The position numbers and the translations under genes were made by a program. Below, piece after piece: positions 5,944-57,523 of a stretch of 64,000 nt of DNA. The notes under the pieces are model-generated. The model was not told the origin of the DNA. It was given only the letters and a program-made list of their open reading frames with translations, and did no database searches. This DNA is from a virus. How positions within the stretch are numbered: position 1 is the stretch's first letter; every line of letters begins with the position of its first letter. The DNA is taken from the IMG/VR virus record IMGVR_UViG_3300027710_000023; one strand, written 5' to 3'.

Positions 5944-6182
5944 TGGATATGTTAATGATGGCTTTGCAGAATAAAGGTATTATGCTTTTATCTGATCTGT
6001 TTTCAGCAGCAATGGGTTTATTAATGCTGTTATGTTGTATGTTAGTTGGTGCAAAATTATTAGGAATTGATATTTATGCTGCAATCGATAAAGTTGAAAA
6101 TCATCCTGTTGCATATGCAATTCTTGTTACTGGGCATTTCCTTGGTGCTGCCTACGTACTCGGTTGCACATTCACTGTATGA
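5943..6182 (+). CDS. putative class II holin/antiholin (two TM helices)
   Basis: 79 aa with two hydrophobic helices. GAGGTGG RBS. Its stop abuts the endolysin start. Confidence 0.4.
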   Translation: MDMLMMALQNKGIMLLSDLFSAAMGLLMLLCCMLVGAKLLGIDIYAAIDKVENHPVAYAILVTGHFLGAAYVLGCTFTV

Positions 6183-6186
6183 TAAG

Positions 6187-6663
6187 ATGATAGCCGCTTC
6201 TGCGGCTACTTATATGCCTGAAGTTGATTGGTTATTATGGAAAGCGCAAGTACATACAGAAAGTGCATTTAACCCAAATGCAAAATCACCTGTAGGAGCG
6301 CAAGGGTTATCTCAAGTAATGCCGGGTACATTTATGCAAATTAGTAAAGAATCCGGTATTAATAATAACCCTTATGACCCACAGACTAATTTAATGGCAG
6401 GTGCGTACTATATGGCTAAAATGCGTCGTATATTCAAATCACCAAGACCTGATATTGAAAGACATAAGTTAGCTGTAGCAAGTTATAACGCAGGAGCAGG
6501 ACACATCATTAAAGCACAAGCTTTAGTTGGTAATCCGCCTGAATGGAAACCAGTAGCAGATGTATTACCTAAAATAACTGGTAAACATGCAAAGGAAACA
6601 CAGAACTATGTTGAAAGAATATATCGAACCTATCAAGTTTATTCTATTGGTTCTACTTATTAG
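6187..6663 (+). CDS. endolysin, SLT-domain lytic transglycosylase
   Basis: HTESAFNP...GAQGLSQVMPGTF...AYYM...SYNAG motifs of soluble lytic transglycosylase. An alternative upstream start at 6115 would add a signal/SAR-like hydrophobic N-terminus. Confidence 0.7.
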   Translation: MIAASAATYMPEVDWLLWKAQVHTESAFNPNAKSPVGAQGLSQVMPGTFMQISKESGINNNPYDPQTNLMAGAYYMAKMRRIFKSPRPDIERHKLAVASYNAGAGHIIKAQALVGNPPEWKPVADVLPKITGKHAKETQNYVERIYRTYQVYSIGSTY

Positions 6664-7117
6664 TGGTTCAGGTTATTTAGGTTATGACTACGCTAATAAT
6701 AAGTGGGAAAAGAAAGAAAGTGAAACTATCGCTACTCAAGCTAAAATGATTAGTGATTTACAAGAAAAGTATCGATTAATTGAGAGTAAGACACAAAATG
6801 AATTTACAAAGATTGACAACAGCGATCAACACAAGATTTTGGCTTTACAAAGTGCCATTGATACTAACGAGTCTGTTATTGATAAGTTGCGCGCAGAAAT
6901 TACCAAATATAAAGGAATGTCCAAAATATCCACGAATACCGGAGTTAACAGAGAATTCGCGGCAACAGCCACTACCGCTGTACTGTATGCCGAATTGTTT
7001 GGACGCGCTAACGAAAGAGCAAGAGACTTGGCTATTGTTGCTACAGACACCAGAAACCGAGGATTAAGCTGCGAAGCTAAATACGATGCTATTTATCAGC
7101 AACAGTTTACCTTTTAA
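6608..7117 (+). CDS. i-spanin (Rz-like)
   Basis: N-terminal TM helix (FILLVLLISG) followed by coiled-coil and charged periplasmic sequence. Directly downstream of the endolysin. Confidence 0.55.
   Translation: MLKEYIEPIKFILLVLLISGSGYLGYDYANNKWEKKESETIATQAKMISDLQEKYRLIESKTQNEFTKIDNSDQHKILALQSAIDTNESVIDKLRAEITKYKGMSKISTNTGVNREFAATATTAVLYAELFGRANERARDLAIVATDTRNRGLSCEAKYDAIYQQQFTF
6798..7067 (+). CDS. o-spanin (Rz1-like lipoprotein) embedded in the +1 frame of the i-spanin
   Basis: Signal peptide with lipobox LISC. Short proline-rich mature part with three further Cys. Lies entirely inside 6608..7117. Confidence 0.55.
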   Translation: MNLQRLTTAINTRFWLYKVPLILTSLLLISCAQKLPNIKECPKYPRIPELTENSRQQPLPLYCMPNCLDALTKEQETWLLLLQTPETED

Positions 7118-22436: not shown

Positions 22437-25400
22437 ATGGAAAACAACACTCCTCAAACCGGAGAAGAGTTGCGCCAACTGTTATTGACAGAAGGTAATA
22501 CTCCTACCCGTGAATCAAAAGTTGTTATTGGTTCTCAAACCAAACAACAACAACTTCAAAACACTACTAACAAACAAATCAGTGTTAGTAACGCCTCCAC
22601 TAATAAACAAATTAAATTAAAACAAGAAACTGATCCTACTGTACCAGTTAATACGGATTTAGTTTCTTATGTTGATTTTGCAAAGTCTTTTCCTGAAGGA
22701 ACATCATTAATAGATATTGATGTTGAATACTTACGTAATCAACGTGCTACTAATGAAAGAAAACAAGCTGAAATTAATCAAAACTATGAACGTAAACGTG
22801 ATCGTAGTGTTAGTGAGATTGCTTCAGATACTGGACTAAGTTTAGCTAAGAATGCTTCTTTAATTGGTGAAGCGGCTTTAGGCTTTGCTGATTTAGCTGG
22901 TTCTGGTGCTACAGATAACTTTGGTAATAAATTAAACCGAGCTATGGGTGCTGTGCTTGGTAAAGACACTGCTATTCCTAAAGCAGAAGATTTAGACAAA
23001 CAAATGTCTACCAAAGTACAAGCTCAACAAAAAAATATTCAAGATCGTGTTGCTGCTGTTAAGAGAGCAAATGAGACTGCTACAGCTGCTTTAGGTGATA
23101 AAGCTACTTGGTGGGATACAGCTAGTTCTGTTGGTTCAGAATTGAGTGAGAACTTAGTAGCATTAGTTGATAACCCATCTGCTTTAGCTGATGTTGCTCT
23201 TTCATCCGCTTTAGCTTTTACAGTACCTGCTGCTGTGTCAAAAGGTTTAACAAAAGCTGCAATTAAGAATGCTAAGCCTGAAGATATTGCTGAACTGATT
23301 GCTTCAGGCAAATTAGATAAGTTAGGTGAAGCCGGTGCAGTGATTGGTACTGCTGGACTGGAAGGTTTCTCACAAGCTTATTCTGAGAAAGAAAAAGTAC
23401 TGGAAACTGATCCAAGTGCATTACGTGAAACTTCTCCTAAGTTCAGAGAGTTAGAAGATAAGTATGGTACAGATAAAGCAAAACAAATGATTGCTGATTC
23501 TGTATTTCAATCTAACTTAGGATTAACTGCTGTATTAGCTGGTGTAGCAAGTAAAGTTACTGGTGCTGCTAAACTAGAGAAAGATTTATTTGTTGGTTCA
23601 GATACTTTAACTGCAATTGGCAAAGAAGCATTAGAAGAATCATTACAGTCAGCATCTAGTAATACAGTAGCTAACTTAACTGAAAAGACTTATGTAGATA
23701 AGAACCAGACATTAACAGAGAACTTAGGTTCAGCTGTTGCTACTGGATTAGCTGGTGCTGTAGTAAGTACCGCTGCTCTAAGTGGTACTGCTAATGCTGG
23801 TTCTGTATTAGCTGATAAAGTTGATAAGGGTTTAGCCAAAGTACAAGACCAAGCTACTAAGTTAGCTAATGCTCAACAAATTAATACTGAAGTAATGGAA
23901 GCAGCTACAACAGGTAACTTTGATAAATTAACTTCTAATACTAATTTTAGTATGGAAGAAAAAATCAATATGTTACTTAGTGATGATGTTATAGGTAAAG
24001 TACCAGTAGAACAGCAAGCTAAGATTGCTGAATTTGCTGGAAATTACTATGCTTCATTAGAAGCAGAAGATAAAGATAAATTATCTACTGAACAACAAGA
24101 GTTATCTCAGACAACTGAGTTAGTTAAAAATAAAATAGTTAAAGATCAGATTGATCCTATTATTGGTGATTTAGAAAATATTGATGATGAGAAAGAAGGA
24201 ACTATTGTTCGTGCTTTAGGCTCTTCACCTAATTCATTTACACAAGATCAATTAATTCAATTGGCTCCAGTAGTTTCTGAAAGTACTCGTAGTATTGTTG
24301 ATGCTCAAATAGAAGCTAATAAAGCTATTGAAGAAGTGGAAGCTATTCCACGTAAAGCAACACAACAAGTTAATCAGGATGTAATTAAAGGTGGTAAAGG
24401 CTTTTTAGGTTTAAATGATTATCGTAGACGCTTTGAAGCAGCTATTGGCACAGGTAATGTAGAAGCTGCAACTAAAGCAGCAGATATGTTAGCTAACCTT
24501 GCTACATTGCAAGCTGGTAAAGCAGCTGACATGACAGCATTGATGAAACTTCATAATAGTGAAGGTAATTCACAAAGATACCAAGAAGCCACTAAGAACT
24601 ACCAAACTAAATACAATTTGAAACCAACCGATTCTATTCATCGTGGTTCAGATAAATCAGGTATGGTCAGCCTCGTTGTAAGCGAAGCTAAGGCATTAAA
24701 CAAAGCTCATAAGGTGATGGCAGCGGTATTGGGCCACCAGTCTGGTAAGCCAGTACAGGCGCTTAAAGCACCTAAAGCTACTGTGATCCCTGAAGCTGTA
24801 AAAGAGCCTGTAGCGGTTGCTAAGCCACAGCCGGGCATTCCTATGGGTGAACCAAAAGAAGCTTCTGTAGCTACTCCGGTGCCTGCTCCTGTTGAGGAAG
24901 CTAAGCCAGTTGCCAGCAGCGAAGCTGCGACAGCAACGGAGGCGAAAGCTGACGAAACAACAGAACCAGTAAAGAAAGAATTATCTGAGGCTGAAGAGTA
25001 CGCAGATAGTTTTAGTAATGAAACTAAACCAGAAAAACCAACTACACCGCCTATTCATATTAGTATGAAAGAACGTGAAGATAGACAAAGAGAAGTCAAT
25101 AAAAAGAAAAAACGTTTACAGAAGAAGTTAGAACAGAAAGAAGAAGCACTTAAGAAAGCAGAAGAACGTAAAAATGAAATACGTGATCTGGTTAACAAAG
25201 ATGTAGTACAACCAGTTAATGAAGCTATTAAAGCTACTGGTAATTATGGTAATAAAACAAAATTACGTGATTCATTAGTTAAATTTGGTAATGATGTATT
25301 TACTGCATTAAAAACCAAAGGTATTGCTGAAGCGCGTAAACGTGTAGGTAATTATGCTCGTGGTGCCAAGGATGCATTAAATCGTACTGTTGATATGATA

Positions 25401-28400
25401 GAAACAGATTCTGATTATGTAGCTGGAGCTAATGCAGTTAAAAAAGTATTTGCTTTCAAAGCTAACAAATCAATAATCACTAATAAGATTTATGATAATG
25501 GTATTGCTCGTTTCTTTAATACAGTAGATAAAAATACTTTGTTTAATACTACAGGTAATTTAATTGAAGCTATTCAAGAACGTTCAGATGAGTTTGGTGT
25601 ACAAAGTAACTCAAGCCAAGAAGTATTAGATAATTTTGTAGATTTCCATAAAAAATTTAAAGCAAGTGTAGAGAAGTTATTTAAAGCTCCTTATACAGAA
25701 AAAGCAATGGTTGTTAATAATAACTTTATGGGTTATTTCACTAATGCTGAAGGTAAGTTAGATGATGCTATGGTTACTGCTATGGCAGGTGTAGCTTATA
25801 ACTATATGACCGAATCTGCTTCTGACTTAATAGATAACGACGATGATGCTATTCGTAATATCTTAAACATGGAAGATGAAGAAGAAGTATCACCACAAAT
25901 ACGTAATGCTATGCGTTATGTAGGTATTACTTTAAATGTAGTAGCTGAATCAATGGGTGATCAGTTAGTTAGTTCTATTGGTTTAAAATATAAAACCAAT
26001 ATCTCTGAAGCAGAAGAAGCAACAATGAGTGCTTCATTAGGTACGTTTATTGTATCTATGCTTGAAGATGCTGGCTTAATGAAATTAACAAGCTATGGTC
26101 GTGATGCTTATTTAGAAATGGGTTTTGATGAAGCTACTATAGATAAATTCTTACCTGAAAAGTTAAGTGGTTATTTACAAGTACATTATATCCGCCCAGT
26201 AACACAAATGTGGACAGCTACTGATGAAGCTACAGGTAAGTCATTTGAGTATGAAGATTTGATTGAATCTGTTGTTAAGTCAAAAGATTTGTTACGTGCT
26301 GAGAAAGATGATCCTGATAATATGATTGAAGGTTTTAAACCAGTTATTAATAACATCTTTGACATTGAGCCATTAGATAAAGAACCTTTACTTGTTCAAC
26401 CTAAAGAACAAGGTAAGAAAGTTAAACGTAGTCGTCAATCTCAATCAGTAAAACAGAACCAAGCTATTAATAAGATGAGTCAAGAACCTTGGCAATTAGC
26501 TGATACTTTTGAATCATATAACAAGTTATCTGTTGAAGCTAAACAAGCTATTGCAGGCTTTGCTACTGAAGAAGAGATTGCTCATGCTCATGTGAGTAAA
26601 CGTGAAACTATGGCAGCAAATAACAAGAGTATCACTCGTGTTATTAAAAAGTTTGATGACTTTGTTAAGAATGCTGATGGTAAAGATTTCTACTTACCTG
26701 TAGAGGTATGGAAGAACTTACGTATGGGTTATAAGAGCAGTACTATTAATCCACAGACTAATAAAATGATTCGTCGTTTAATTGGTTTGAAGAATGGTAA
26801 TAAGACTGTTGATTTAACTAATGATGCTCATATTAAGACTTTCCGTATGGCATTAATGGAAGCATTCGATATTAAACTGAAATGGGAAAACATTCAGAAT
26901 GATGATGCTTTAAATGCTAAGTTAACTATCCCAGAAGTTAAAGCAGCTGTTGATATGCTTGTTGCTGGTAATATGAGTGAACAGGTATTAGTTAATGCTG
27001 TGAAGAAGCTTGGTACTAATTATCATGCTTATCATGGTTTGATTGCTTATGCTAAATCAGTAAACAACAAAGTGTTTGAAACAGATCTGTTATTTGAATC
27101 AGATGGTGTCGCTAACGGTGTAGCAATTAGTTTATGGCAGTTTGCTGGTGCAAGAACTAAAGAACAGTTTAAACAAGCAATGCAACGTACAGGTGTGTAT
27201 GAAAATAATGAATATGGCTCATATTTAGAATACCAAGCACAACAAGGTAACATGGATTCATACCAAGTACTTGCTAGTCGATGGGGTGCTGCCGTAAATG
27301 AGTTAAAAGGCTATATCAGTAAATCTGATATTGAGTACACTACTTTGTTTGCTAAGTTTAAAACTGAGAAAGGTACAGCTAAGAAATTAGGTTATTTAAT
27401 TAATTTCTTTGGTTCAAATGAGAAAGCTTTAGAAGGTGTAAATGCAATTACATCTTTAGTAGGTGATTTGACTAATACATTAGGTGAAGTTGAAAAGCTT
27501 GGTCGTGATATGGCTAAGTCTCCTACAATGACATCTATTTATAATGCCGGCTTAGATTCTATTTTAGATAAAGTATCTGATGGTATTATTGAAAGAATGT
27601 ACGATCAATTAGAAAATGATGTTAATAAAGGAACTAATAACAAAGAACGTATCGTTAAAGCTTTAAACGTATTGTTTAATGCTAACTTTGATATGGATAG
27701 TCCATTAGAATGGCAACTGTCAAATATTAAAGATAAATACACAATTACTACAATGGAAGGTAAGCAAATTAAAGTAACTGCTGAAGAAGGCTTAAAGCAT
27801 GTTATTGCTATGGTGTATGGCCCTACATTAGATAATGCTATGTATTCTGTGTATGGTAGATTGCTTGATAATCGTCAAACAGCAAACCAAGCTATTACTT
27901 ATGCTTTCCGTGTGTTTAAAGAAATTTATGACATTGAAGAGAAAAATAAGTTAGCTGAGCTGGGTGTTAGTAGTTTATCTAAAGATCAACGTGATGAATT
28001 AATTAATCAACTCAAACCATACTGGCCTGTACTTGCTACTCCTACTTCTAAAGATAACAGTGAAGGTATTCTGTTATTTAAAGAGAAGAAGCGCAAAGGT
28101 TATAAAACTGATGCAAAAGCTAAAGCATTTGCTGTAGTACAAGAGTACGCAGGTAAAATTGGTAGTAACGGTAATAAGCAACGTACTGTCAACGCTAGTG
28201 CTATTGCTTTAGAAGAACCGGGTGCTAGTGGTATTCCTACTGCTGTTCAGATGTTGGATGCTCATACTATGTTTGGTGCATTGTCTGAAGTAGTTGGCTT
28301 GAACGTACATGATGCTATTGGCTCAACTATTGCAGATGCTGATAATAATACCACAGCAATAAACAAAGCTTATAACCAAATGGTTATGGGTAATTATAAC

Positions 28401-31400
28401 ATTGAGACTTCTGTAGAGTTAATGTTAGATAATGCAATTAAAGCAGCACAAGCATATGGTATTGAAGATAAATTAAACAGAATGACAGATAGATATGATC
28501 AAACACTTAATCCAACTGAAGTAAAAGATCAGATTGAATTAAATATTGAAATGTCTAATAAGTTACGTTCATCTTTAAAAGTTAGTACCATATCTCAATA
28601 TGATAAACCTAATGGTGCTTATTTAACTGGTAATAGTGTTATTGATACTGATGAAGTAGTTGTTGAAGAAGTTGTACAAGATGTGTTTAAGGAAATGAAA
28701 GATTTGTTAGGTTCTCAGGATGTAACTAAAGGAACTGAAGACTTTTCACAAGCACAGACTTATAACGCAACTGTTGATAACTCAATGGATATTTTTAATC
28801 AACTGGAAACATTAGGTAGTGTAGAAGACAATACAGAACATAAAGAACACTTACGTTCTGTTTTATCAGAAATGATTAATAAAGTATTACAACCTACGTT
28901 AGTTGTGTTAGGTACTGTAGATGAAGCTACTCGTGGTAGATTCATGCAGGATGTTAATGGTAAACGCCAAATTGAAATTGCTACAAGTGTTGGTGATTTT
29001 GAGTACGGTTTATCTGCACAAGAAGTTTATGTACATGAAATGATCCATAACATTATTGGACATGCTTTATCATCAGGTGCTGTAGAAGTAAAACGTATTA
29101 CTGCTATGTTCAACGCAGTAAAAGATTTAGTGGATAGTGGTGACATTACTTATAAAGATTTTTTATCTTTGGATCAAGCTGGTAATACTATCAGTAATCC
29201 AACACAAGAACAGATTGATGATGCTACAGATAGATTAAATTATATCTTTAATAACACAACGGTACGTGTACGTAAGATTACTGATCCCGCTACAGGAATT
29301 GTTACTACTACTAAGACAAATAGTGCGTTAGAAGAGTTTGTTGCCTTTGGTACTACTAATGCTGCCTTTATGAAAGCATTAAATAAACCAAATGTACTTA
29401 TGGCTCTTAAAACTAAATTAAGACCAGAACACAGTAAAACTAAATCAAATACATGGTTAATCCAGAAATTTGACAGCATAGTTAATGCATTACTGGACAT
29501 GATTCAGTTTGCTATGGATAAGCTGACTGACCGGGTGTTGAACATTGCCGGGAAGAAAGTAGATGCTCAGTTGGCAACGCTTGTATCGGCTCTGGCTGGC
29601 GTTCAGGTGAAACATCAAAGCAAAGTGATGCAAGGTATAGATGCGGTGTTAGCGTTCAGCACAGCCTCAACCGCTAAGCTTAAAGCATGGGTAGTAGCAC
29701 CGATTGTTGCAGCTGCTAATAGCTCACGATTCAAAAACAGCAAGAATACTGTTGTTCGTGTGACTACTAAGGCAATTGCTGTTGCTGGTAACAGTAAAGC
29801 AGGTACTTGGGCTAAAGCGTTACGTCAAACACGTAGTCGTTTAAATATGACCCAAGATAACTTTGCTTTGTCGTTAGCTCAGGAAATTGCAGGTGTTACA
29901 TCTAAAAATAAACACTGGCATAAGTTATTACGTTTATCTAATAAACATATTGACCAATTACGTAAGCATGTAGCAACTACTGTTAAGAATACTCTTAATG
30001 AGCAGTACAGCTACACTTTAAATAAAGAAGAGAAAGCTGCTATTACTAAAGCAGTATTAAAAACTGATTTAACTGCGTTACTGGAATATGGTTACACTTA
30101 TGATGAAATCTATGATTTATTAAAAGATGAATCCAAGTTAACTAAAGTAATTGAAGATAAACAAGCTTTAATTAAGAAAACGTATACTCAAGGTGTTGGT
30201 CGTTGGGTATTAGACCAAAGTACTGGTTTATCTAATAAGATGATCACTGGAACTGAGATTCGTGGTAATCAAGGATTGAATGCTTATCAAATTGCTAACG
30301 GCTTTGGTAATCCAATTATCAAGAAACGTATGCAAGATAATAAGGTAGACAACAACCAATTAGAAAAAGATGTTGATGAATTAGTTACTTTAATGGCTCT
30401 GAACTTAGTTGATTCTAAAGTTAAAGCTAACGTGGTATCTATTTTTGATAAAGAAGTAGCTTCTGGTAAAACACTAAACAACAATGGTTTGAGTTTTACT
30501 ATGGAACATCACCGTAACTACAAAGTAGATTCACGTAATGAAAACTTTGATGGTAATCCAGCATTGATGCGTAAAGGGTATGTCAAAGAAATTACTGATC
30601 CTAATATTGCAGTACAAGTAGTTGACGTAACTGATTTTGTTAAAATTGCAGAGTTAGTTAAAGCAGGATACAAACCAACTCAACAATATATCTATGGTGA
30701 TGTGCGTGATCCTAATGGATCAAAAATGGAGATATACCGTAACACTGCTGCTAAGTTAGCAACTAACTCTGCTGGTATTGTATCCCTGACTTCTAAACAA
30801 AGCATGGGTACAGATATACTGGATGGTTTTGTTAACAAAGATACTATGAGTACTAATATTGGTTTGGATGCTTATTTAAATATCCAAGCAATTAATAAAG
30901 ATATGGAAATTGCAAGTAACGTAGGTATGACTGCATCAGGTAATACTAAGACTGTATTGTTAACACCTGTATTTAACTTAGATGGTGATGTAGTAAATTA
31001 CCGGTATGAAATGTCAGATGCTAATAAAGAAAAGTTGTTAAAAAGACACAATTCTTTTGATGACATTTTATCTGGTATGACTGCACAAATTAAAGATAAA
31101 GCTAATACTAAAACAATTAACAGTGTTGTAGTTGAGACTTTAAAGCAAGAGTTTGATGCAGAGTTTGTTAAGTCACCTAAAGAGTTTGTGTTAGTTGGTA
31201 TTAACAGTACTGATCCAGCAATGAAAGAGTTATGGTTTACTCTTCCAGAAGAAATGCGTATTGAAGCTACTAAGTTATTTGGTACTAAGGGATTATATGT
31301 TAAGAAGAAAGACTTACGTTTAATCTTTGGTTTCCGTAAGTTTACTGTGGGTGAGTGGGCTGAGAAGCTACAGGAACAAAGTAAAGTACAGAACAAGATG

Positions 31401-32357
31401 CTTAACTACGCAGCAAGACATGTACTTGAGTTGTTACAGAAACCTTTAGTACATCAAGGTGAAGAAGTATGGCAAGAAATTGTACGTATGGCTAAAGATA
31501 CTATTGTTGTTAAGACAGGTGCTACTTTAGTTGGTAACGTTATCTCTAACTTTGCAGTACTGATGACTGAAGGTGTTTCTTTCAGTGATATTCTTAAGTA
31601 CCACTCTATTGCATGGAAAGGTGCTAATAAATACCAGAAAGATAAAAACAAGTTGGATAGTTTGAAGTTGGAATTGGAAAACAAAAATAATCTGTCTGTT
31701 ACTGAAGCTGCCAAGATGAAACGTGAGATTGCTTTACTGGAAAACAGTATTAGCACAAACCCAGTTTATTCATTGGTTCAAGAAGGTATTTATCAGACGA
31801 TTGTTGAAGATGTGGACATGGATGAGGATACATTCAGTTATCAGAGTAAATTGGAAAAGGTAACTTATCCACTTACATCTAAAATACCTGATGTTATCAA
31901 AGACATGAGTAAGATTCTGTTTGTAACACATGATACGCAACTTTATAAAGCAATGCGTAATGCTACACAGATTAGTGACTTTGTTGCTCGGTTTACGTTG
32001 CATCAACACAACTTAACCAAACAAAAAATGAGTGAGGAAGATTCTATCAATAATATTGTAGAAACATTTGTTAACTATGACTTACCAACACATAAGAGTA
32101 TTCAGTATCTGAATGACATGGGTTTAGTTATGTTTAGTAAGTTCTTTATACGTATTCAGAAAGTTATCCTAAGACAGTTAACAGAAAGAACTGGTAACGT
32201 GTTGTCATTGTTCTTAGTGCAACAAATCTTAGGAATAAACATTGCTGATATATTTGATGGTGCAGTTGTGATGCCAAATACGATTGAAGCTAAGTTTGCT
32301 GATCCATTGGATCATGTAGACACTTTATTTGGGATTCACCTTTTTAACAACATCTGA
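22437..32357 (+). CDS. virion-encapsidated RNA polymerase (N4 vRNAP-like giant protein, 3306 aa)
   Basis: Single 9.9-kb ORF. The central region carries T7-like RNAP motif-C-like VHDAIGS and LFESDGVANG. Size and position match the N4 gp50 class. Confidence 0.7.
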   Translation: MENNTPQTGEELRQLLLTEGNTPTRESKVVIGSQTKQQQLQNTTNKQISVSNASTNKQIKLKQETDPTVPVNTDLVSYVDFAKSFPEGTSLIDIDVEYLRNQRATNERKQAEINQNYERKRDRSVSEIASDTGLSLAKNASLIGEAALGFADLAGSGATDNFGNKLNRAMGAVLGKDTAIPKAEDLDKQMSTKVQAQQKNIQDRVAAVKRANETATAALGDKATWWDTASSVGSELSENLVALVDNPSALADVALSSALAFTVPAAVSKGLTKAAIKNAKPEDIAELIASGKLDKLGEAGAVIGTAGLEGFSQAYSEKEKVLETDPSALRETSPKFRELEDKYGTDKAKQMIADSVFQSNLGLTAVLAGVASKVTGAAKLEKDLFVGSDTLTAIGKEALEESLQSASSNTVANLTEKTYVDKNQTLTENLGSAVATGLAGAVVSTAALSGTANAGSVLADKVDKGLAKVQDQATKLANAQQINTEVMEAATTGNFDKLTSNTNFSMEEKINMLLSDDVIGKVPVEQQAKIAEFAGNYYASLEAEDKDKLSTEQQELSQTTELVKNKIVKDQIDPIIGDLENIDDEKEGTIVRALGSSPNSFTQDQLIQLAPVVSESTRSIVDAQIEANKAIEEVEAIPRKATQQVNQDVIKGGKGFLGLNDYRRRFEAAIGTGNVEAATKAADMLANLATLQAGKAADMTALMKLHNSEGNSQRYQEATKNYQTKYNLKPTDSIHRGSDKSGMVSLVVSEAKALNKAHKVMAAVLGHQSGKPVQALKAPKATVIPEAVKEPVAVAKPQPGIPMGEPKEASVATPVPAPVEEAKPVASSEAATATEAKADETTEPVKKELSEAEEYADSFSNETKPEKPTTPPIHISMKEREDRQREVNKKKKRLQKKLEQKEEALKKAEERKNEIRDLVNKDVVQPVNEAIKATGNYGNKTKLRDSLVKFGNDVFTALKTKGIAEARKRVGNYARGAKDALNRTVDMIETDSDYVAGANAVKKVFAFKANKSIITNKIYDNGIARFFNTVDKNTLFNTTGNLIEAIQERSDEFGVQSNSSQEVLDNFVDFHKKFKASVEKLFKAPYTEKAMVVNNNFMGYFTNAEGKLDDAMVTAMAGVAYNYMTESASDLIDNDDDAIRNILNMEDEEEVSPQIRNAMRYVGITLNVVAESMGDQLVSSIGLKYKTNISEAEEATMSASLGTFIVSMLEDAGLMKLTSYGRDAYLEMGFDEATIDKFLPEKLSGYLQVHYIRPVTQMWTATDEATGKSFEYEDLIESVVKSKDLLRAEKDDPDNMIEGFKPVINNIFDIEPLDKEPLLVQPKEQGKKVKRSRQSQSVKQNQAINKMSQEPWQLADTFESYNKLSVEAKQAIAGFATEEEIAHAHVSKRETMAANNKSITRVIKKFDDFVKNADGKDFYLPVEVWKNLRMGYKSSTINPQTNKMIRRLIGLKNGNKTVDLTNDAHIKTFRMALMEAFDIKLKWENIQNDDALNAKLTIPEVKAAVDMLVAGNMSEQVLVNAVKKLGTNYHAYHGLIAYAKSVNNKVFETDLLFESDGVANGVAISLWQFAGARTKEQFKQAMQRTGVYENNEYGSYLEYQAQQGNMDSYQVLASRWGAAVNELKGYISKSDIEYTTLFAKFKTEKGTAKKLGYLINFFGSNEKALEGVNAITSLVGDLTNTLGEVEKLGRDMAKSPTMTSIYNAGLDSILDKVSDGIIERMYDQLENDVNKGTNNKERIVKALNVLFNANFDMDSPLEWQLSNIKDKYTITTMEGKQIKVTAEEGLKHVIAMVYGPTLDNAMYSVYGRLLDNRQTANQAITYAFRVFKEIYDIEEKNKLAELGVSSLSKDQRDELINQLKPYWPVLATPTSKDNSEGILLFKEKKRKGYKTDAKAKAFAVVQEYAGKIGSNGNKQRTVNASAIALEEPGASGIPTAVQMLDAHTMFGALSEVVGLNVHDAIGSTIADADNNTTAINKAYNQMVMGNYNIETSVELMLDNAIKAAQAYGIEDKLNRMTDRYDQTLNPTEVKDQIELNIEMSNKLRSSLKVSTISQYDKPNGAYLTGNSVIDTDEVVVEEVVQDVFKEMKDLLGSQDVTKGTEDFSQAQTYNATVDNSMDIFNQLETLGSVEDNTEHKEHLRSVLSEMINKVLQPTLVVLGTVDEATRGRFMQDVNGKRQIEIATSVGDFEYGLSAQEVYVHEMIHNIIGHALSSGAVEVKRITAMFNAVKDLVDSGDITYKDFLSLDQAGNTISNPTQEQIDDATDRLNYIFNNTTVRVRKITDPATGIVTTTKTNSALEEFVAFGTTNAAFMKALNKPNVLMALKTKLRPEHSKTKSNTWLIQKFDSIVNALLDMIQFAMDKLTDRVLNIAGKKVDAQLATLVSALAGVQVKHQSKVMQGIDAVLAFSTASTAKLKAWVVAPIVAAANSSRFKNSKNTVVRVTTKAIAVAGNSKAGTWAKALRQTRSRLNMTQDNFALSLAQEIAGVTSKNKHWHKLLRLSNKHIDQLRKHVATTVKNTLNEQYSYTLNKEEKAAITKAVLKTDLTALLEYGYTYDEIYDLLKDESKLTKVIEDKQALIKKTYTQGVGRWVLDQSTGLSNKMITGTEIRGNQGLNAYQIANGFGNPIIKKRMQDNKVDNNQLEKDVDELVTLMALNLVDSKVKANVVSIFDKEVASGKTLNNNGLSFTMEHHRNYKVDSRNENFDGNPALMRKGYVKEITDPNIAVQVVDVTDFVKIAELVKAGYKPTQQYIYGDVRDPNGSKMEIYRNTAAKLATNSAGIVSLTSKQSMGTDILDGFVNKDTMSTNIGLDAYLNIQAINKDMEIASNVGMTASGNTKTVLLTPVFNLDGDVVNYRYEMSDANKEKLLKRHNSFDDILSGMTAQIKDKANTKTINSVVVETLKQEFDAEFVKSPKEFVLVGINSTDPAMKELWFTLPEEMRIEATKLFGTKGLYVKKKDLRLIFGFRKFTVGEWAEKLQEQSKVQNKMLNYAARHVLELLQKPLVHQGEEVWQEIVRMAKDTIVVKTGATLVGNVISNFAVLMTEGVSFSDILKYHSIAWKGANKYQKDKNKLDSLKLELENKNNLSVTEAAKMKREIALLENSISTNPVYSLVQEGIYQTIVEDVDMDEDTFSYQSKLEKVTYPLTSKIPDVIKDMSKILFVTHDTQLYKAMRNATQISDFVARFTLHQHNLTKQKMSEEDSINNIVETFVNYDLPTHKSIQYLNDMGLVMFSKFFIRIQKVILRQLTERTGNVLSLFLVQQILGINIADIFDGAVVMPNTIEAKFADPLDHVDTLFGIHLFNNI

Positions 32358-49235: not shown

Positions 49236-49895
49236 ATGACTAAAGTAGAATATTTAGAATCTCAACGTGGTCAAAGCTACACTTTCATAGTTAATAATCA
49301 ACCAACAGTTGATACTATTGGTTCAATTACAGCAGAACATGTTCAAGAGATGACTACTATTCTTGCAGAAGGTTTAAGACTGGAAGTAGATAGTTATGTT
49401 GCTACAGAAGAGACTAAACAACTTTATAGCGCAGTAAAAGTAGCATTAAGTCCTGAACATATTTACAGTCCAGATTTTAAGATCAATTTTAGTTTACCTA
49501 ATATCTGGGGAACATTTCAGCTTGCAGTACAAGCAGGTATTATTTTACAAAGTTCTGCTGATAAACTAGTTAATCTTGCTACATATAAGAAAAATGTATT
49601 AAAAGTAACAAGACAAGATTGTATTGATTATTTTAGTTTAGATTGGGTAAACCCAACACCAATTAATATTGGCTCAAGTCGTCAAATTGAAATTAAATTA
49701 AATCAACAAAGTGTTGAAAGCACCTACTTAATTTTTGAAATGTCTAGAGATGGTGTTAATTGGGTTCCTGCTGGTAGTGTACACGGGCTTTACAAGTCTG
49801 GGGTATACTTAGGTAGTATTCCACCTTATGGTAGCTCACGTTTCATCCGGTGGCGTGGAGAATACGATTTAGATGTGACCATAGAAGGTATCTAA
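49236..49895 (+). CDS. hypothetical protein (first gene of the plus-strand island)
   Basis: 219 aa with GGAG RBS. Confidence 0.4.
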   Translation: MTKVEYLESQRGQSYTFIVNNQPTVDTIGSITAEHVQEMTTILAEGLRLEVDSYVATEETKQLYSAVKVALSPEHIYSPDFKINFSLPNIWGTFQLAVQAGIILQSSADKLVNLATYKKNVLKVTRQDCIDYFSLDWVNPTPINIGSSRQIEIKLNQQSVESTYLIFEMSRDGVNWVPAGSVHGLYKSGVYLGSIPPYGSSRFIRWRGEYDLDVTIEGI

Positions 49896-49896
49896 T

Positions 49897-51444
49897 ATGA
49901 CTTGGGCGCTAAAGTTCAATCCCGAAGGTAACGCTGGTAATGATGTTGTTACACTAGGTACTGCGCTAGTTCCGGGAATAGGTGTTGGTACTTCAAATTG
50001 GGCTATCGAATTTCGTATGAAGTTAGATGCTCTGCCTGCGTCTGGTAACTGGTATATTCTTGGTTCCGGCTCTGCATCACAAAATGCAGGTTTTGTTATA
50101 CGTTCTGCGTCTGGATCTGGTGTATTAGCTTTAGTTAGTGCAGGTACACATATCTCAGCAGCAGACTCTCCTGTTGGATTTTTAATAGCTGATGGGGAGT
50201 TTCATACATATCGAATTGTACGTGTTGCTGGCACATCTATTAGTTTTTACAGAGATGGCGCTACAATACAGTTAAATAAATCATGGGCTACTACAAGTAA
50301 CTTTACACTTAGTCTTAACCGTTTTGGTCGAGGTAGTATCAGCGGTACTGGTGGTGTTACTCCAATGGAGTTGGAGTGGTTTGACGCTACCGAATTTGAT
50401 ACTACCAATGGTCAGCGATGGGAATCAGATTTAGCAAATGGTTCTGGTACTGTTTGGCCTACAGTTAGTGGTAATAACCAAGGTACATTGGTTAACTTTA
50501 CTGCTGGTGCTGAATGGGTATTTTATGGTAGTACACCTGAGTTTACTGCTGTTGTAAGTGCAACATATGGATCATATACAGCTACAGTTGCAGCAGATAG
50601 CACAAGACCAACCAATTCACTATCTATTGCTGCACAGTATGCAAGTTATATTGCAGCAGTAAACAGTACCAATACAAAACCAGTTAAGACAATTAGTATT
50701 AATACACAATACCCAGCTTATACAGTATCTGTAAATGCTACAGGTGGTGTACCTGCTTATAATGTGAGTATTAATTCTAATTACCCTATTTATGTAGGTA
50801 GTGTTGTAGGAACAAATACTAAACCTGTTAAAACAAGTCAGATAAGTGCTACATACGCTACGTATACAGCAAATGCTACTTGTAGTAACACAAAACCAAT
50901 TAAAACAATAAGTATTAGTAGTCAGTATCCTGTTTTTAGTGTTAGTGTTGTAGCCACAAAACAGGCTAGTGGGCATACAGCTAGTATATTAGCAACATAC
51001 CCTAATTACACTGGTTCAGTTAATAGTACAAACACTAAACCAATTAAAACAGTAATAGTAACAGGAATATATCCTAGTTATATAGTAAATGTAGTTGGTA
51101 CAAATAACAAACCTGTTAAAACAGTTATTGTATCTACTACTTATAGTAGTTATACAGCAAGTGTAGTTGCTAACGTTGTTAGAAATAATGTTATATCTAT
51201 AAATAGTACTTATCCAAGATATACAGCTAATGTTGTATGTGGACAAGAAATACCAGATAAAACATTAACTATTAATTCAACATATCCAAAGTATATTGGT
51301 ATAGTTGTATTAGGTGATTTTGTGAATATGCCTTACCGTGGTGGTAAGGGAGCACATTTGGTTATCTCATCTGGTTCCAGAGAGATTAAAATTAAAGACA
51401 AAAGTCGTAATGTTAAATGGAGAGTAGAAAATGCCCGGTTATAA
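49897..51444 (+). CDS. lectin-like (concanavalin A/LamG-like) protein with about ten tandem 22-aa repeats
   Basis: The N-terminal about 200 aa are beta-sandwich-like (WAIEFRMKLDA...FHTYRIVRV...FYRDGA). Residues about 221-460 are degenerate repeats of the form YxxYTAxVxxTNTKPVKTxxI. Confidence 0.5.
   Translation: MTWALKFNPEGNAGNDVVTLGTALVPGIGVGTSNWAIEFRMKLDALPASGNWYILGSGSASQNAGFVIRSASGSGVLALVSAGTHISAADSPVGFLIADGEFHTYRIVRVAGTSISFYRDGATIQLNKSWATTSNFTLSLNRFGRGSISGTGGVTPMELEWFDATEFDTTNGQRWESDLANGSGTVWPTVSGNNQGTLVNFTAGAEWVFYGSTPEFTAVVSATYGSYTATVAADSTRPTNSLSIAAQYASYIAAVNSTNTKPVKTISINTQYPAYTVSVNATGGVPAYNVSINSNYPIYVGSVVGTNTKPVKTSQISATYATYTANATCSNTKPIKTISISSQYPVFSVSVVATKQASGHTASILATYPNYTGSVNSTNTKPIKTVIVTGIYPSYIVNVVGTNNKPVKTVIVSTTYSSYTASVVANVVRNNVISINSTYPRYTANVVCGQEIPDKTLTINSTYPKYIGIVVLGDFVNMPYRGGKGAHLVISSGSREIKIKDKSRNVKWRVENARL
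50557..51277 (+). repeat. degenerate tandem repeat array, about 66-bp unit, about 10 copies, coding
   Basis: Repeated aaaccagttaagacaat / acaaaaccaattaaaacaat cores seen in the DNA. Matches the protein repeats. Confidence 0.5.
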
Positions 51445-56107: not shown

Positions 56108-56375
56108 GTTATGTCCTTAAAATTGAATTGGTGGAGTGAAGCCCTCTACACAACAGTAGGAACCACTTCTGTTATGTAAACATCACTCCACCGAAAAAGA
56201 ATTGTTGGTTGTGGATACCACTAACCAAGTTAAACTCTAGCTTGCAGCTACTTAAGTACTTATTTTTCTTATTGGCTCATGTGTACTGTCTAACTCTTTA
56301 ACAATATAAATAGAAGCCCCCTAAACATTGTTTGGGAGAACATTAATTGAAAAATTATGTCTAGGAGACTTTTAT

Positions 56376-56585
56376 TTATTCTGTTAGTAACTCTTTAAGT
56401 CGTAACTGTCTTAATTTTCTAGTTCTACATCTACTTCTACAGTAAATATGATTCTTGTTACGGGATAAAAACCATTCTTGACATATAGGACATTGTGTAA
56501 GCGTTGAACCACAATAAATACACTTACCATTGTGTGTAACGTGTTTCTGTGACATTTCCTTTTTACCTTGGCTCAATTGATCCAA
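56376..56585 (-). CDS. zinc-ribbon protein
   Basis: CIYCGS...CPIC followed by HIYCRSRCR. 69 aa, basic. Confidence 0.45.
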   Translation of the reverse strand: MDQLSQGKKEMSQKHVTHNGKCIYCGSTLTQCPICQEWFLSRNKNHIYCRSRCRTRKLRQLRLKELLTE

Positions 56586-56601
56586 ATAAATTATAGGTTA
56601 T

Positions 56602-56619
56602 TGGCGCTTTAGTGGCGCT
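56602..56619. promoter_or_regulatory. 7-bp direct repeat tggcgct x2 (11-bp periodicity) in the divergent promoter region
   Basis: tggcgctttagtggcgct, about 20 bp upstream of the GGAG RBS of 56638..57354. Confidence 0.3.
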
Positions 56620-56637
56620 CTAACCGGAGAAAAGAAA

Positions 56638-57354
56638 ATGGCTACATTTAATGAAGACGTAATCACCCGTGGGTTTGCAGGCGGTTCTGACGGCTTTGGT
56701 GGTGGTATGGGTGGTGGTTTGTTACTTGGTTTATTGCTCGGTCGAGTAGGTTTATTTGGCAATCAAAACGGTGAAGGCTGCGTTACAAATGAAACTATCA
56801 ACCAACAAACGCTTGGCGATATTAAAGCTGCGATCCCGCTGTCAGAAGCACAGGTTCAGCTTGCTTTAGCTGGCGCACAGGCTTCTTTGTCTAGCCAAGC
56901 AACCCAAGATACCCAGTATTTAAGTAATCAAACACAGGCTTTGGCAATTGCTCAAATGCAATTAGCTGCCGGGCTTTCTCGTGAAATTACTGCTGTAGAT
57001 ACTAATGTTGATCGTCAATCTACTGCTATTCAACAAGCAGTATTTAGTGATGGTGAACGTACAAGACAATTAATTACCAATAATCGCATTAGTGATCTTG
57101 AACAACAATTAACTGTTGCACAGCTTGGTAGTGCTGAACAGCGTGCAATTAACCGTGAAATTACCAATACTAATACAATTACTATTGGTATGAATCAACA
57201 ACAAGCTCAACAGCAACAACAACTACAAGCTTTACAATGGCAATTACAAGCATTGTTTGGTCAAGTAGCTCAAGCAACTAACAGTAATGTTATTGTTGGC
57301 TCAACCGGTGTACGTACTGATCAAGCAGCTAATCCTACTAATGTAAGGGCATAA
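56638..57354 (+). CDS. Gly-rich / Gln-rich low-complexity protein (reverse-oriented in the early region)
   Basis: Strong RBS (GGAGaaaagaaaATG). N-terminal GGSDGFGGGMGGGLLLGLLLGRVGLFG. Long Q/A-rich helical region with QQQAQQQQQLQALQWQLQALFGQ. Confidence 0.5.
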   Translation: MATFNEDVITRGFAGGSDGFGGGMGGGLLLGLLLGRVGLFGNQNGEGCVTNETINQQTLGDIKAAIPLSEAQVQLALAGAQASLSSQATQDTQYLSNQTQALAIAQMQLAAGLSREITAVDTNVDRQSTAIQQAVFSDGERTRQLITNNRISDLEQQLTVAQLGSAEQRAINREITNTNTITIGMNQQQAQQQQQLQALQWQLQALFGQVAQATNSNVIVGSTGVRTDQAANPTNVRA

Positions 57355-57355
57355 T

Positions 57356-57523
57356 ATGCTAGTTGATTTCAAATCAGATGGTACAATGGTTATTGTTCCA
57401 GAATGTGTTACGGAACTAATGGCATTGAAGTACTGGATGTACGAATTTCAAAAACATGGAGTTAAAATGCTTGAAGTAATGATTGAAACACACACAGAAG
57501 TAGTTCCAGAAGTTTTACGTTAA
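57356..57523 (+). CDS. small 55-aa ORF co-oriented and likely translationally coupled with 56638..57354
   Basis: ATG 2 nt after the upstream stop. TAAGGG RBS. Not in the supplied ORF track (below its length cut-off). Confidence 0.3.
   Translation: MLVDFKSDGTMVIVPECVTELMALKYWMYEFQKHGVKMLEVMIETHTEVVPEVLR

What the first reader, a model, noticed from the sequence alone, without database searches (positions are those of the whole stretch)
56586..57523. Reverse-oriented two-gene cassette (Gly/Gln-rich 238-aa protein plus coupled 55-aa ORF) inside the minus-strand early region
The cassette has its own strong RBS and a direct-repeat element (tggcgct x2, one helical turn apart) in the upstream divergent region. 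The large product has a Gly-rich hydrophobic N-terminus (GGSDGFGGGMGGGLLLGLLLGRVGLFG) and a long Gln/Ala-rich helical region ending in a poly-Q tract. That composition is reminiscent of glycine-rich translocation or membrane-inserting domains of bacteriocins. The 55-aa ORF starts 2 nt after its stop. The arrangement resembles toxin/immunity or effector/chaperone pairs. The function is unknown.
Basis: partly seen in the sequence, partly recalled or inferred. Interest (0 to 1): 0.65.

Follow-up and report, generated by a model that had tools for sequence, protein, structure and literature searches.

The report
Portable three-gene coiled-coil rod cassette
The two reverse-oriented genes are real and belong to a self-contained three-gene cassette (small zinc-ribbon protein, long rod-shaped coiled-coil protein, small partner) found in unrelated freshwater phages; its protein family matches nothing known and its function has not been tested.

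Summary
ORFs 56638..57354 (238 aa) and 57356..57523 (55 aa) are intact, translationally coupled and under purifying selection (dN/dS 0.18 and 0.32). The window is an N4-like podophage.

A divergent 59-aa zinc-ribbon gene (56376..56555, minus) lies across a length-conserved 82-92 nt control region. That region holds the TGGCGCT repeat, which is a tandem 11-mer that folds into a hairpin ending at the RBS.

The same trio occurs in a 49-kb myovirus (KLER1-1) that otherwise shares only an endolysin with this phage. It also occurs in ~45-kb and ~75-kb metagenomic phages, almost always antisense to its neighbours. It is absent from 185,579 bacterial genomes.

The 238-aa protein is predicted as one ~160-residue helix behind a short Gly/Leu hydrophobic segment. 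It is extremely Lys-poor (0.4% against a genome median of 7.4%). It has no Pfam, NCBIfam, PADLOC or PDB match.

Distant relatives (385 clusters) often sit beside collagen-like or tail-fibre genes. My best guess, at low confidence, is a portable accessory fibre-like rod with its chaperone. An envelope-anchored exclusion protein is nearly as likely. The bacteriocin/immunity reading is not supported.

The parts
56307..56378 (-). Strong hairpin immediately 3' of the zinc-ribbon ORF. It is the probable left boundary of the cassette and looks terminator-like.
   Evidence: RNA fold of the minus strand: -22 kcal/mol, z = -4.07, 0 of 200 shuffles as stable. The consensus terminator scan did not call it.
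56376..56555 (-). Divergent zinc-ribbon gene of 59 aa starting MSQKHV. The Cys pattern is CxxC-x6-CxxC-x13-CxxxC, followed by a basic tail (CRSRCRTRKLR). It is a probable nucleic-acid-binding regulator of the cassette.
   Evidence: The open reading frame runs up to a TTG at 56585, but homologues start at MSQ(K/R)HV. It is conserved divergently upstream of the large gene in 17 analysed loci. dN/dS is 0.14. It has no family hit.
56556..56637 (.). Divergent control region of 82 nt. It contains a TATAAT hexamer on the minus strand (56590-56595), the tandem 11-mer/hairpin (56598-56619, stem extending over 56596-56625), and the GGAG RBS (56626-56629).
   Evidence: Its length is 82-92 nt in 8 of 9 relatives compared. 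TATA(A/G)T is conserved when read on the minus strand. A short GC-rich dyad sits at the same place in most relatives. Covariation support is weak.
56638..57354 (+). The 238-aa rod protein. It has a conserved N-terminus (MATFNEDI), a Gly/Leu hydrophobic segment with GxxxGxxxG (residues ~23-41), one predicted helix (51-214), a Q tract (186-204) and a conserved C-terminal tail (ATNSxVxVGSTG...ANPTNVxA).
   Evidence: AlphaFold2 gives helix 51-214 with pLDDT 85-97 over residues 70-200. 120 homologues are 61-87% identical. 385 clusters at 50% identity match the profile. dN/dS is 0.18. Lys is 0.4%.
57356..57523 (+). The 55-aa acidic partner, translationally coupled. It is predicted as a beta-hairpin plus helix and carries a conserved ALKYW..E...HG.K.LE motif.
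   Evidence: Its start is 1 nt after the stop of the large gene. It is conserved downstream of the large gene in every close relative. AlphaFold2 pLDDT is 79. dN/dS is 0.32. It has no fold or family match.

Best explanation
The region is a self-contained three-gene cassette carried by unrelated virulent freshwater phages. Its layout is: a zinc-ribbon protein transcribed leftwards, a short control region with a dyad/hairpin, then rightwards the 238-aa protein and a co-translated 55-aa partner. In most relatives a terminator follows.

Shown:
- All three genes are conserved together and evolve under purifying selection.
- The cassette sits at different places, and mostly antisense, in phages that share almost nothing else.
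- The large protein is predicted to be a single ~160-residue (~24 nm) helix.
- Its composition is extreme (Q+N 22%, Lys 0.4%).

Inferred:
- The helix forms a parallel, probably trimeric, coiled-coil rod.
- The short Gly/Leu segment near the N-terminus is an anchoring or packing element rather than a classical membrane helix.
- The strongly conserved C-terminal tail is the docking or assembly end.
- The 55-aa protein is a dedicated assembly partner or chaperone, like the small genes that follow phage fibre genes.
- The zinc-ribbon protein acts on the dyad/hairpin so that host RNA polymerase or ribosomes express the cassette independently of the resident phage's own programme.

Most likely role: an accessory fibre-type structural rod, exposed on the virion or outside the cell, that can be plugged into different phages. 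It is not an enzyme or a toxin.
For: Rod shape: AF2 predicts one helix, 51-214, at high confidence. Conserved large hydrophobic residues lie on one face with ~3.6-residue periodicity. An R-h-x-x-h-E motif (R150-E155), described from memory as a trimerisation motif, is present in the sequence.

Fibre-like composition: this is the most Lys-poor and most Q/N-rich of the 41 large ORFs. The next most Lys-poor ORFs include the tail fibre and a tail protein of the same phage.

No signal peptide was seen by eye in the sequence, and the hydrophobic segment is weak (sum of Hessa values +4 to +8 kcal/mol; KD 1.0-1.46). This argues against export by Sec and fits assembly in the cytoplasm.

Neighbours of distant relatives: in 45 of 92 loci the next one to four genes are small proteins with collagen repeats, BclA_C-like domains or T4 gp9/10_N-like domains. 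Others lie after tail-fibre genes (phiPLPE gp36-gp38) or beside virion genes (L047).

A small co-translated downstream gene that changes between subfamilies is the usual arrangement for fibre-plus-chaperone pairs (established knowledge).

Strong conservation is more typical of structural proteins than of accessory ones: 60-85% identity across genomes of 36-59% GC.

In the N4-like genomes the cassette points the same way as the late structural genes.
Against: A virion fibre must dock on a virion protein. Yet both ends of this protein are conserved between an N4-like podovirus and a P2-tailed myovirus that share only an endolysin besides the cassette.

In most genomes the cassette lies in early or replication regions (window, L106, L107, KLER1-1) or antisense inside the structural operon (L002, L004). 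It also carries its own regulator and terminator, which is more typical of host-directed accessory genes.

The GenBank annotations of phiPLPE and KLER1-1 do not flag the homologue as a virion component. This is weak evidence, because coverage of those analyses is unknown.

The collagen, BclA_C and gp9/10 matches of the neighbours are below Pfam's curated cut-offs. They concern a different subfamily, which lacks the zinc-ribbon and the 55-aa partner.

The oligomeric state was not computed.
Confidence: 0.33

Rival explanations
1. Host-envelope-directed accessory module. The Gly-zipper segment anchors an oligomeric rod in the inner membrane, with the rod either spanning the periplasm or lying in the cytoplasm. 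The rod would block entry of competing phages (superinfection exclusion) or modulate envelope integrity or lysis timing. The 55-aa protein keeps it inactive or soluble, and the zinc-ribbon sets its level.
For: It is an autonomous, mostly antisense unit with its own regulator and terminator, inserted at different sites in unrelated phages.

It is located in early or replication regions in the N4-like phages and KLER1-1.

A GxxxGxxxG hydrophobic segment is conserved family-wide and is duplicated in some members.

Conservation of both termini across phage types suggests a conserved host target.

The rod length of ~24 nm is similar to the width of the periplasm (inference).

A remnant in Sucellus shows that the cassette is dispensable.
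Against: The hydrophobic stretch is only 9-11 residues long, interrupted by a conserved Arg, and scores well above zero on the Hessa scale.

No signal peptide or lipobox was seen by eye in the sequence.

The extreme Lys depletion and fibre-like composition are not explained.

The fibre-like neighbours of distant relatives are not explained.

There is no PADLOC hit.

The phage already has an SLT endolysin and a DUF2514 i-spanin, and KLER1-1 has annotated i- and o-spanins, so the protein is not the spanin.
Confidence: 0.28
2. A pilot- or conduit-like protein. Many copies would form an alpha-helical tube with a Gly-rich membrane-inserting end and an N/Q/R-rich wall, as the phiX174 H protein does. 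The tube would carry nucleic acid or protein across the envelope, or act as a decoy for such conduits.
For: The architecture parallels H. In H, residues 151-271 form a decameric tube 170 A long, with 18 of its 23 inward-facing residues being N, Q or R (PMC7354561).

Here 31% of the helix is N/Q/R, and 32 such positions are conserved in at least 90% of sequences.

The top BFVD match is a microvirus DNA pilot protein, but it is far from significant (E = 7.2, probability 0.06).
Against: There is no sequence or significant fold similarity.

The conserved N/Q/R residues do not fall on one helical face.

Tailed phages already have tails, tape-measure proteins or ejection proteins for this job.

The protein's presence in the virion is unknown.
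Confidence: 0.08
3. One reading: a toxin or bacteriocin-like membrane-inserting effector with a downstream immunity protein.
For: There is a Gly-rich hydrophobic segment, and a tightly coupled small downstream ORF is conserved in the subfamily.
Against: No toxin or immunity domain is found in Pfam, NCBIfam, PADLOC or PDB.

Only one hit was found in 185,579 bacterial and archaeal genomes, and that hit is a 44-kb phage-like contig.

The carriers appear to be virulent phages.

The small partner is not conserved across the superfamily.

The large protein is a long polar helix without any recognisable killing domain.
Confidence: 0.05

Closest known systems
Trimeric coiled-coil virion fibres (T4 fibritin, P22 tail needle gp26, reovirus sigma1)
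   Same: All are elongated rods built on a long uninterrupted alpha-helical coiled coil, with a short special segment at one end. In reovirus sigma1 that segment is a hydrophobic N-terminal anchor (from memory). They are Ser/Thr/Gln/Ala-rich and are often accompanied by a dedicated folding element or chaperone.
   Different: No sequence or fold match was found. The cassette has its own regulator and is usually outside, or antisense to, the structural operon. Here the C-terminus, not the N-terminus, is the most conserved end. Virion association has not been shown.
Microviridae DNA pilot protein H (phiX174; PDB 4JPP)
   Same: Both have a Gly-rich hydrophobic N-terminal segment (for H, from memory) followed by a very long helix rich in Gln, Asn and Arg (PMC7354561). 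The length is sufficient to cross a Gram-negative envelope.
   Different: No homology is detectable. The only hint is a non-significant BFVD hit (E = 7.2). The carriers are tailed dsDNA phages. The conserved polar residues are not confined to one face.
Phage morons and lytic-phase exclusion genes (e.g. T5 llp, T4 imm/sp, P22 sieA)
   Same: These are independent transcription units with their own promoter and terminator. They are often antisense to their neighbours, dispensable, and exchanged between phages.
   Different: The GC content of the cassette matches each resident genome. There is no lipobox, signal peptide or clear transmembrane helix. The carriers are not prophages. The protein is far more conserved than typical morons.
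Small zinc-finger phage regulators (P2 Ogr/P4 Delta late activators; Mu Com translational activator)
   Same: The divergent 59-aa Cys-rich protein with a basic tail sits next to a dyad/hairpin that lies just upstream of the RBS of the gene it would control. Com binds a hairpin 5' of the mom start, and Ogr binds a dyad upstream of late promoters (both from memory).
   Different: There is no Pfam hit to Ogr_Delta or any other family. The Cys spacing differs. The gene is divergent rather than in the same operon. Binding has not been tested.

Membership tests
Colicin/pyocin-type bacteriocin with immunity gene | A recognisable cytotoxic (pore-forming or nuclease) or translocation domain | tested here: not met
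   No Pfam, NCBIfam or PDB sequence hit for the window protein or for distant relatives.
Colicin/pyocin-type bacteriocin with immunity gene | Encoded in bacterial chromosomes or plasmids | tested here: not met
   One hit in 185,579 species genomes, on a 44-kb phage-like MAG contig. The scan used peptide patterns of the close subfamily only.
Colicin/pyocin-type bacteriocin with immunity gene | A cognate immunity gene always linked to the toxin | tested here: inconclusive
   The 55-aa ORF is always linked within the close subfamily. In other subfamilies it is replaced by unrelated small genes (hhalign probabilities of 2% or less).
Two-component spanin (i-spanin/o-spanin) | An N-terminal transmembrane helix plus a periplasmic coiled coil, paired with a lipoprotein partner bearing a lipobox, within the lysis cassette | tested here: not met
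   The hydrophobic segment is weak. The 55-aa partner shows no signal peptide or lipobox in its sequence. The phage has an SLT endolysin and a DUF2514 i-spanin at 6067-7117. KLER1-1 has annotated i- and o-spanins elsewhere in its genome.
Microviridae pilot protein H | Sequence or fold homology to H | tested here: not met
   The PDB profile searches do not recover 4JPP. The BFVD hit to a microvirus pilot protein has E = 7.2.
Microviridae pilot protein H | A long helix whose lumen face is lined with N/Q/R | tested here: inconclusive
   31% of the helix is N/Q/R and 32 such positions are conserved, but they show no single-face clustering (resultant 0.07-0.4).
Microviridae pilot protein H | Packaged in the virion and forms a decameric tube | not testable with these tools
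   Only a monomer prediction was available.
Phage trimeric coiled-coil fibre | A long continuous amphipathic helix with heptad-like periodicity | tested here: met
   AF2 helix 51-214. Hydrophobic periodicity is ~3.6, and conserved hydrophobic residues lie on one face.
Phage trimeric coiled-coil fibre | Part of the virion | not testable with these tools
   The annotations of phiPLPE and KLER1-1 do not flag it as a virion protein. This is not decisive.
Phage trimeric coiled-coil fibre | Homology to a known fibre family | tested here: not met
   No Pfam or PDB hit. The related PHROG families (8119, 9288) are 'unknown function'. The 'putative tail-fiber' label of phiPLPE gp38 is an unverified annotation.
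Moron (autonomous accessory unit) | Own promoter and terminator, inserted between resident genes | tested here: met
   Terminator hairpins follow the small ORF in L001, L002, L004, L106 and L107. A divergent control region is present. The orientation is antisense to the neighbours. The window copy itself lacks a canonical terminator.
Moron (autonomous accessory unit) | Base composition different from the resident genome | tested here: not met
   The GC content of the module tracks that of its flanks in 10 loci (0.36-0.59).
Ogr/Delta or Com zinc-finger regulators | Family HMM match | tested here: not met
   Only weak, unrelated zinc-finger hits.
Ogr/Delta or Com zinc-finger regulators | A small Cys4-type zinc-binding protein next to a dyad/hairpin target | tested here: inconclusive
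   The Cys pattern and basic tail are conserved. A dyad is present at the same place in most relatives, but its covariation is weak.

The most novel reading that the evidence does not exclude
The cassette may encode a lineage-independent, self-regulated envelope-spanning alpha-helical rod or tube, functionally analogous to the phiX174 H pilot protein. Tailed phages of unrelated morphotypes would exchange it, and it would act at the host envelope to gate or block macromolecule passage, for example as a new kind of superinfection exclusion. A variant of the same idea is a 'plug-in' fibre able to dock on virions of unrelated phages.
Probability: 0.12. Interest if true: 0.85.

Novelty: new variant of a known kind. 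Interest (0 to 1): 0.55.

Why it matters
This is a large, strongly conserved protein superfamily: 385 clusters at 50% identity and 212 IMG/VR loci. It has no annotation in any library searched. It is present in only four of 50,697 deposited phage genomes, and three of those phages (KLER1-1, phiPLPE, At2) are cultured and carry an intact copy, so it can be tested directly.

The cassette keeps 60-85% protein identity while sitting in genomes of 36-59% GC that otherwise share almost no genes. That implies a strong, general constraint, either a conserved host target or a demanding self-assembly.

If it is an accessory fibre, it would be a rare case of a structural add-on that works across phage morphotypes. 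If it acts on the envelope, it would be a new exclusion or envelope module of virulent aquatic phages.

The near-total avoidance of lysine, with one invariant Lys in an AT-rich genome, is unexplained in itself.

Tried and rejected
Nucleotide search against deposited phages found nothing.

Family searches gave no usable hits. This covers Pfam, PHROGs, NCBIfam and PADLOC on all three proteins and on ten distant relatives. Two PHROG families of unknown function (8119, 9288) match distant relatives.

PDB profile searches with the close and the distant alignments returned only noise: laccase, EscO, stathmin and the DnaJ Gly-rich region.

Fold searches were uninformative. The 55-aa model had no match below E = 2.7. 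The 238-aa model had four matches, all above E = 7. A single long helix is a poor fold query in any case.

Searches for homologues of the 55-aa and zinc-ribbon proteins returned only 8 and 2 hits, because such short ORFs are rarely called.

Profile-profile comparison of the 55-aa partner with the small neighbours of other subfamilies found no relation.

RNAalifold on the control region gave only 3 pairs at about zero energy, so the hairpin rests on position and on the individual folds.

Rfam found nothing. The consensus promoter/terminator scan found nothing in the cassette.

The spanin idea was rejected because the phage and KLER1-1 have their own spanins. A lysogenic-conversion moron was rejected because the family is absent from bacterial genomes.

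Literature searches for KLER1-1, phiPLPE gp38, At2, and glycine-zipper phage proteins found no description of this family.

The exact-sequence look-up of the window's own protein found no contig on record.
Full report
**What is in the window.** The window is an N4-like podophage.
- A 3306-aa ORF (22437..32357) matches the virion RNA polymerase family phrog_2206 at E = 0.
- Terminase, portal, major head protein, tail fibre and tail proteins lie on the plus strand from 10 to 22270.
- From 33 kb onward almost everything is on the minus strand.

- ORF 56638..57354 encodes 238 aa from an ATG, with GGAG 8 nt upstream.
- ORF 57356..57523 encodes 55 aa and starts one base after the TAA of the first.

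**The repeat.**
- The heptamer TGGCGCT occurs at 56602 and 56613, and only once more in the 64 kb.
- It is part of a head-to-tail 11-mer, TTATTGGCGCT/TTAGTGGCGCT.
- Because GGCGCU is nearly self-complementary, the two copies fold into an 11-bp hairpin that ends at the RBS (-14.3 kcal/mol, z = -2.7).
- The corresponding dyad pattern is expected 0.05 times in the window and occurs once.

**A third gene.** Directly upstream and divergent is a small ORF (56376..56585 as listed). Comparison with relatives shows that it starts at the ATG at 56555.
- It encodes a 59-aa protein, MSQKHVTHNGKCIYCGSTLTQCPICQEWFLSRNKNHIYCRSRCRTRKLRQLRLKELLTE.
- It has six conserved Cys and a basic tail.
- The distance between the two divergent start codons is 82-92 nt in eight of nine relatives compared.
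- A conserved TATA(A/G)T reads best as a -10 hexamer on the minus strand. In the window it is a perfect TATAAT at 56590-56595.
- A short GC-rich dyad with a ~5-nt loop sits between this hexamer and the RBS of the large gene in most relatives. Its sequence varies: GUGC/GCAC, AGCGC/GCGCU, CCGCGC/GUGCGG. Formal covariation support is weak.
- A strong hairpin follows the zinc-ribbon ORF (-22 kcal/mol, z = -4.1).
- Terminator hairpins follow the small ORF in relatives L001, L002, L004, L106 and L107.
- In the window a convergent gene overlaps the stop instead, and no terminator is called.

**The genes are real.**
- The 238-aa protein has more than 418 homologues of nearly constant length (237-250 aa) in metagenomes.
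- 120 of them are 61-87% identical to it and share many invariant positions.
- Against relative L106, dN/dS is 0.18 (large gene), 0.32 (55-aa gene) and 0.14 (zinc-ribbon gene).
- No close relative has a disrupted copy.
- One distant cultured phage, Dickeya phage Sucellus, keeps only a 121-aa N-terminal remnant next to an unannotated zinc-ribbon ORF.

**The cassette moves as a unit.**
- Among 50,697 deposited phage genomes only four carry a relative:
  - Pararheinheimera phage KLER1-1 (gp73/74/75)
  - Iodobacter phage phiPLPE (gp37/38/39)
  - Acinetobacter phage At2
  - the Sucellus remnant
- KLER1-1 is a 49-kb myovirus with P2-type baseplate genes.
- A tblastn of every window ORF against its whole genome finds only the three cassette proteins and the endolysin.
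- The same trio is found in ~45-kb metagenomic phages. There it sits antisense between capsid and head-tail genes.
- It is also found in other ~75-kb contigs, which are probably also N4-like. There it forms a plus-strand island at different places within minus-strand early or replication genes.
- Module GC follows that of each resident genome, 0.36 to 0.59. The transfers are therefore old, and the 60-85% protein identity reflects constraint, not recency.
- A scan of one genome per 185,579 bacterial and archaeal species found a single hit, on a 44-kb phage-like MAG contig from a lake. This is a phage family, not a prophage or bacterial one.

**The large protein.**
- AlphaFold2 with 120 sequences predicts a short helix at 26-36 and one uninterrupted helix at 51-214. 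pLDDT is 85-97 over residues 70-200. Both tails are low-confidence. A helix of 164 residues is about 24 nm long.
- Conserved large hydrophobic residues fall on one face with ~3.6-residue periodicity. This is what a coiled coil needs.
- The hydrophobic segment (GGMGGGLLLGLLLGRVGLF) contains GxxxGxxxG. It has only 9-11 consecutive apolar residues and a conserved Arg.
- A simple sum of Hessa values gives +4 to +8 kcal/mol. The 19-residue Kyte-Doolittle mean is 1.0-1.46, across the query and 19 sampled homologues. It is therefore not a confident transmembrane helix.
- Composition is extreme. Q+N is 22% and Lys is 0.4%, a single invariant K63. The median Lys among the 41 large ORFs of this AT-rich genome is 7.4%.
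- The next most Lys-poor proteins include the tail fibre and a tail protein.
- The median number of Lys in 120 homologues is one.

**The superfamily.**
- A profile search of 1.8 billion representatives finds 385 clusters.
- Many have variable N-terminal extensions: charged His-rich helices, a ~90-aa beta-rich domain, or low-complexity regions.
- The core is constant: a Gly/Leu segment, DIKAAVPLAEAQVQLALAG, DGEKTRALITSN, a Q-rich stretch, and the C-terminal ATN..G...Q.ANPTNV tail.
- The C-terminus is thus the most conserved end and the N-terminus the most variable.
- IMG/VR holds 212 loci.
- In 92 analysed loci the only universal gene is the rod protein. Partners differ by subfamily.
  - 17 loci have the divergent zinc-ribbon. 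The downstream partner is the ALKYW-type 55-aa protein in some and a ~97-aa KFARYVQ-type protein in others.
  - phiPLPE has a different small basic protein upstream.
- In 45 loci the next one to four genes encode small proteins with collagen repeats, a BclA_C-like domain or a T4 gp9/10_N-like domain. These matches are below Pfam's curated cut-offs.
- The small partners of different subfamilies are not detectably related.

**What it is not.**
- There is no hit in Pfam, NCBIfam, PADLOC, Rfam or PDB.
- It is not the spanin. The phage has an SLT endolysin and a DUF2514 i-spanin at 6067-7117, and KLER1-1 has annotated spanins.
- It is not a bacteriocin/immunity pair by any testable criterion (membership table).

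**Interpretation.** Two models fit about equally well.

The fibre model treats it as an accessory trimeric coiled-coil rod plus chaperone. It explains:
- the rod shape
- the fibre-like, Lys-poor composition
- the lack of export signals
- the small variable downstream partner
- the fibre-like neighbours in distant subfamilies
- the strong conservation

It does not easily explain:
- how one protein with conserved ends could dock on unrelated virions
- why the cassette carries its own regulator and usually lies outside, or antisense to, structural operons

The envelope model treats it as a Gly-zipper-anchored rod acting in exclusion or lysis control. It explains the autonomy, the varying positions and the cross-lineage conservation. 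It does not explain the weak hydrophobic segment, the composition or the fibre-like neighbours.

A third model is architecturally attractive but thin. It is an analogy to the phiX174 H pilot protein, whose decameric helical tube is lined by N/Q/R (PMC7354561). The only hint is a non-significant BFVD match, and the conserved N/Q/R residues do not share one face.

I rank the models as follows: fibre 0.33, envelope 0.28, conduit 0.08, toxin/immunity 0.05. The remainder goes to roles not considered.

The role of the zinc-ribbon protein as regulator of the dyad/hairpin is an inference from position and conservation only.

**Verdict.** This is a real, conserved, portable three-gene cassette encoding an uncharacterised rod-protein superfamily of environmental phages. 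The function is open, and it can be tested directly in three cultured phages that carry an intact copy.

Noticed in passing
window 49236..49895 and 49897..51444 (+): A second plus-strand, translationally coupled gene pair (219 aa and 515 aa) sits inside the minus-strand block. It has no Pfam or PHROG hit. Its Lys content is rather low for this genome (4.6% and 4.1% against a median of 7.4%).
   Followed up: partly
L001 5995..6753 (OM654378.1 about 42254-43012): KLER1-1 gp74 is annotated from an internal ATG (42299). The conserved N-terminus MATFNEDIV... lies upstream in the same frame, so the deposited protein is about 13 residues too short.
   Followed up: yes
L007 4516..4689 (-) and L008 about 4700-5100 (-): Unannotated zinc-ribbon ORFs lie divergently upstream of the rod gene in Acinetobacter phage At2 and upstream of the truncated remnant in Dickeya phage Sucellus. 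Gene callers also missed this ORF in most metagenomic contigs.
   Followed up: yes
window 6067..6663 (+) and L105 23756..24331: The SLT-type endolysin is 55% identical to KLER1-1 gp34. It is the only non-cassette protein the two phages share, which suggests a related host (Rheinheimera/Pararheinheimera-like).
   Followed up: partly
L088 2325..4445; also L028, L042, L069: In ~66-100-kb IMG/VR contigs (L028, L042, L069; L088 is from a 27-kb contig), arrays of three to four small paralogous genes follow the rod-gene homologue. They carry collagen GPP repeats, a BclA_C-like domain or a T4 gp9/10_N-like domain, and are followed by a conserved ~71-aa ORF. The arrays lie amid ribonucleotide reductase, dUTPase, PhoH and Dps-like genes.
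   Followed up: partly
window 56598..56762 (-): A 54-aa Pro-rich ORF lies antisense to the Gly-rich coding stretch. It is a mirror artefact (GGN read as NCC) and not a gene.
   Followed up: yes
window 56568..56585: A palindrome, TTGGCTCAATTGATCCAA (centre CAATTG), lies in the control region between the zinc-ribbon start and the TATAAT hexamer. Its conservation in relatives was not checked.
   Followed up: no
window residue K63 of 56638..57354 (with E70, N123, N149, N215, N232, N235): There is a single invariant lysine in an otherwise lysine-free protein, alongside invariant Glu and Asn residues. An intermolecular isopeptide cross-link is a speculative explanation.
   Followed up: no
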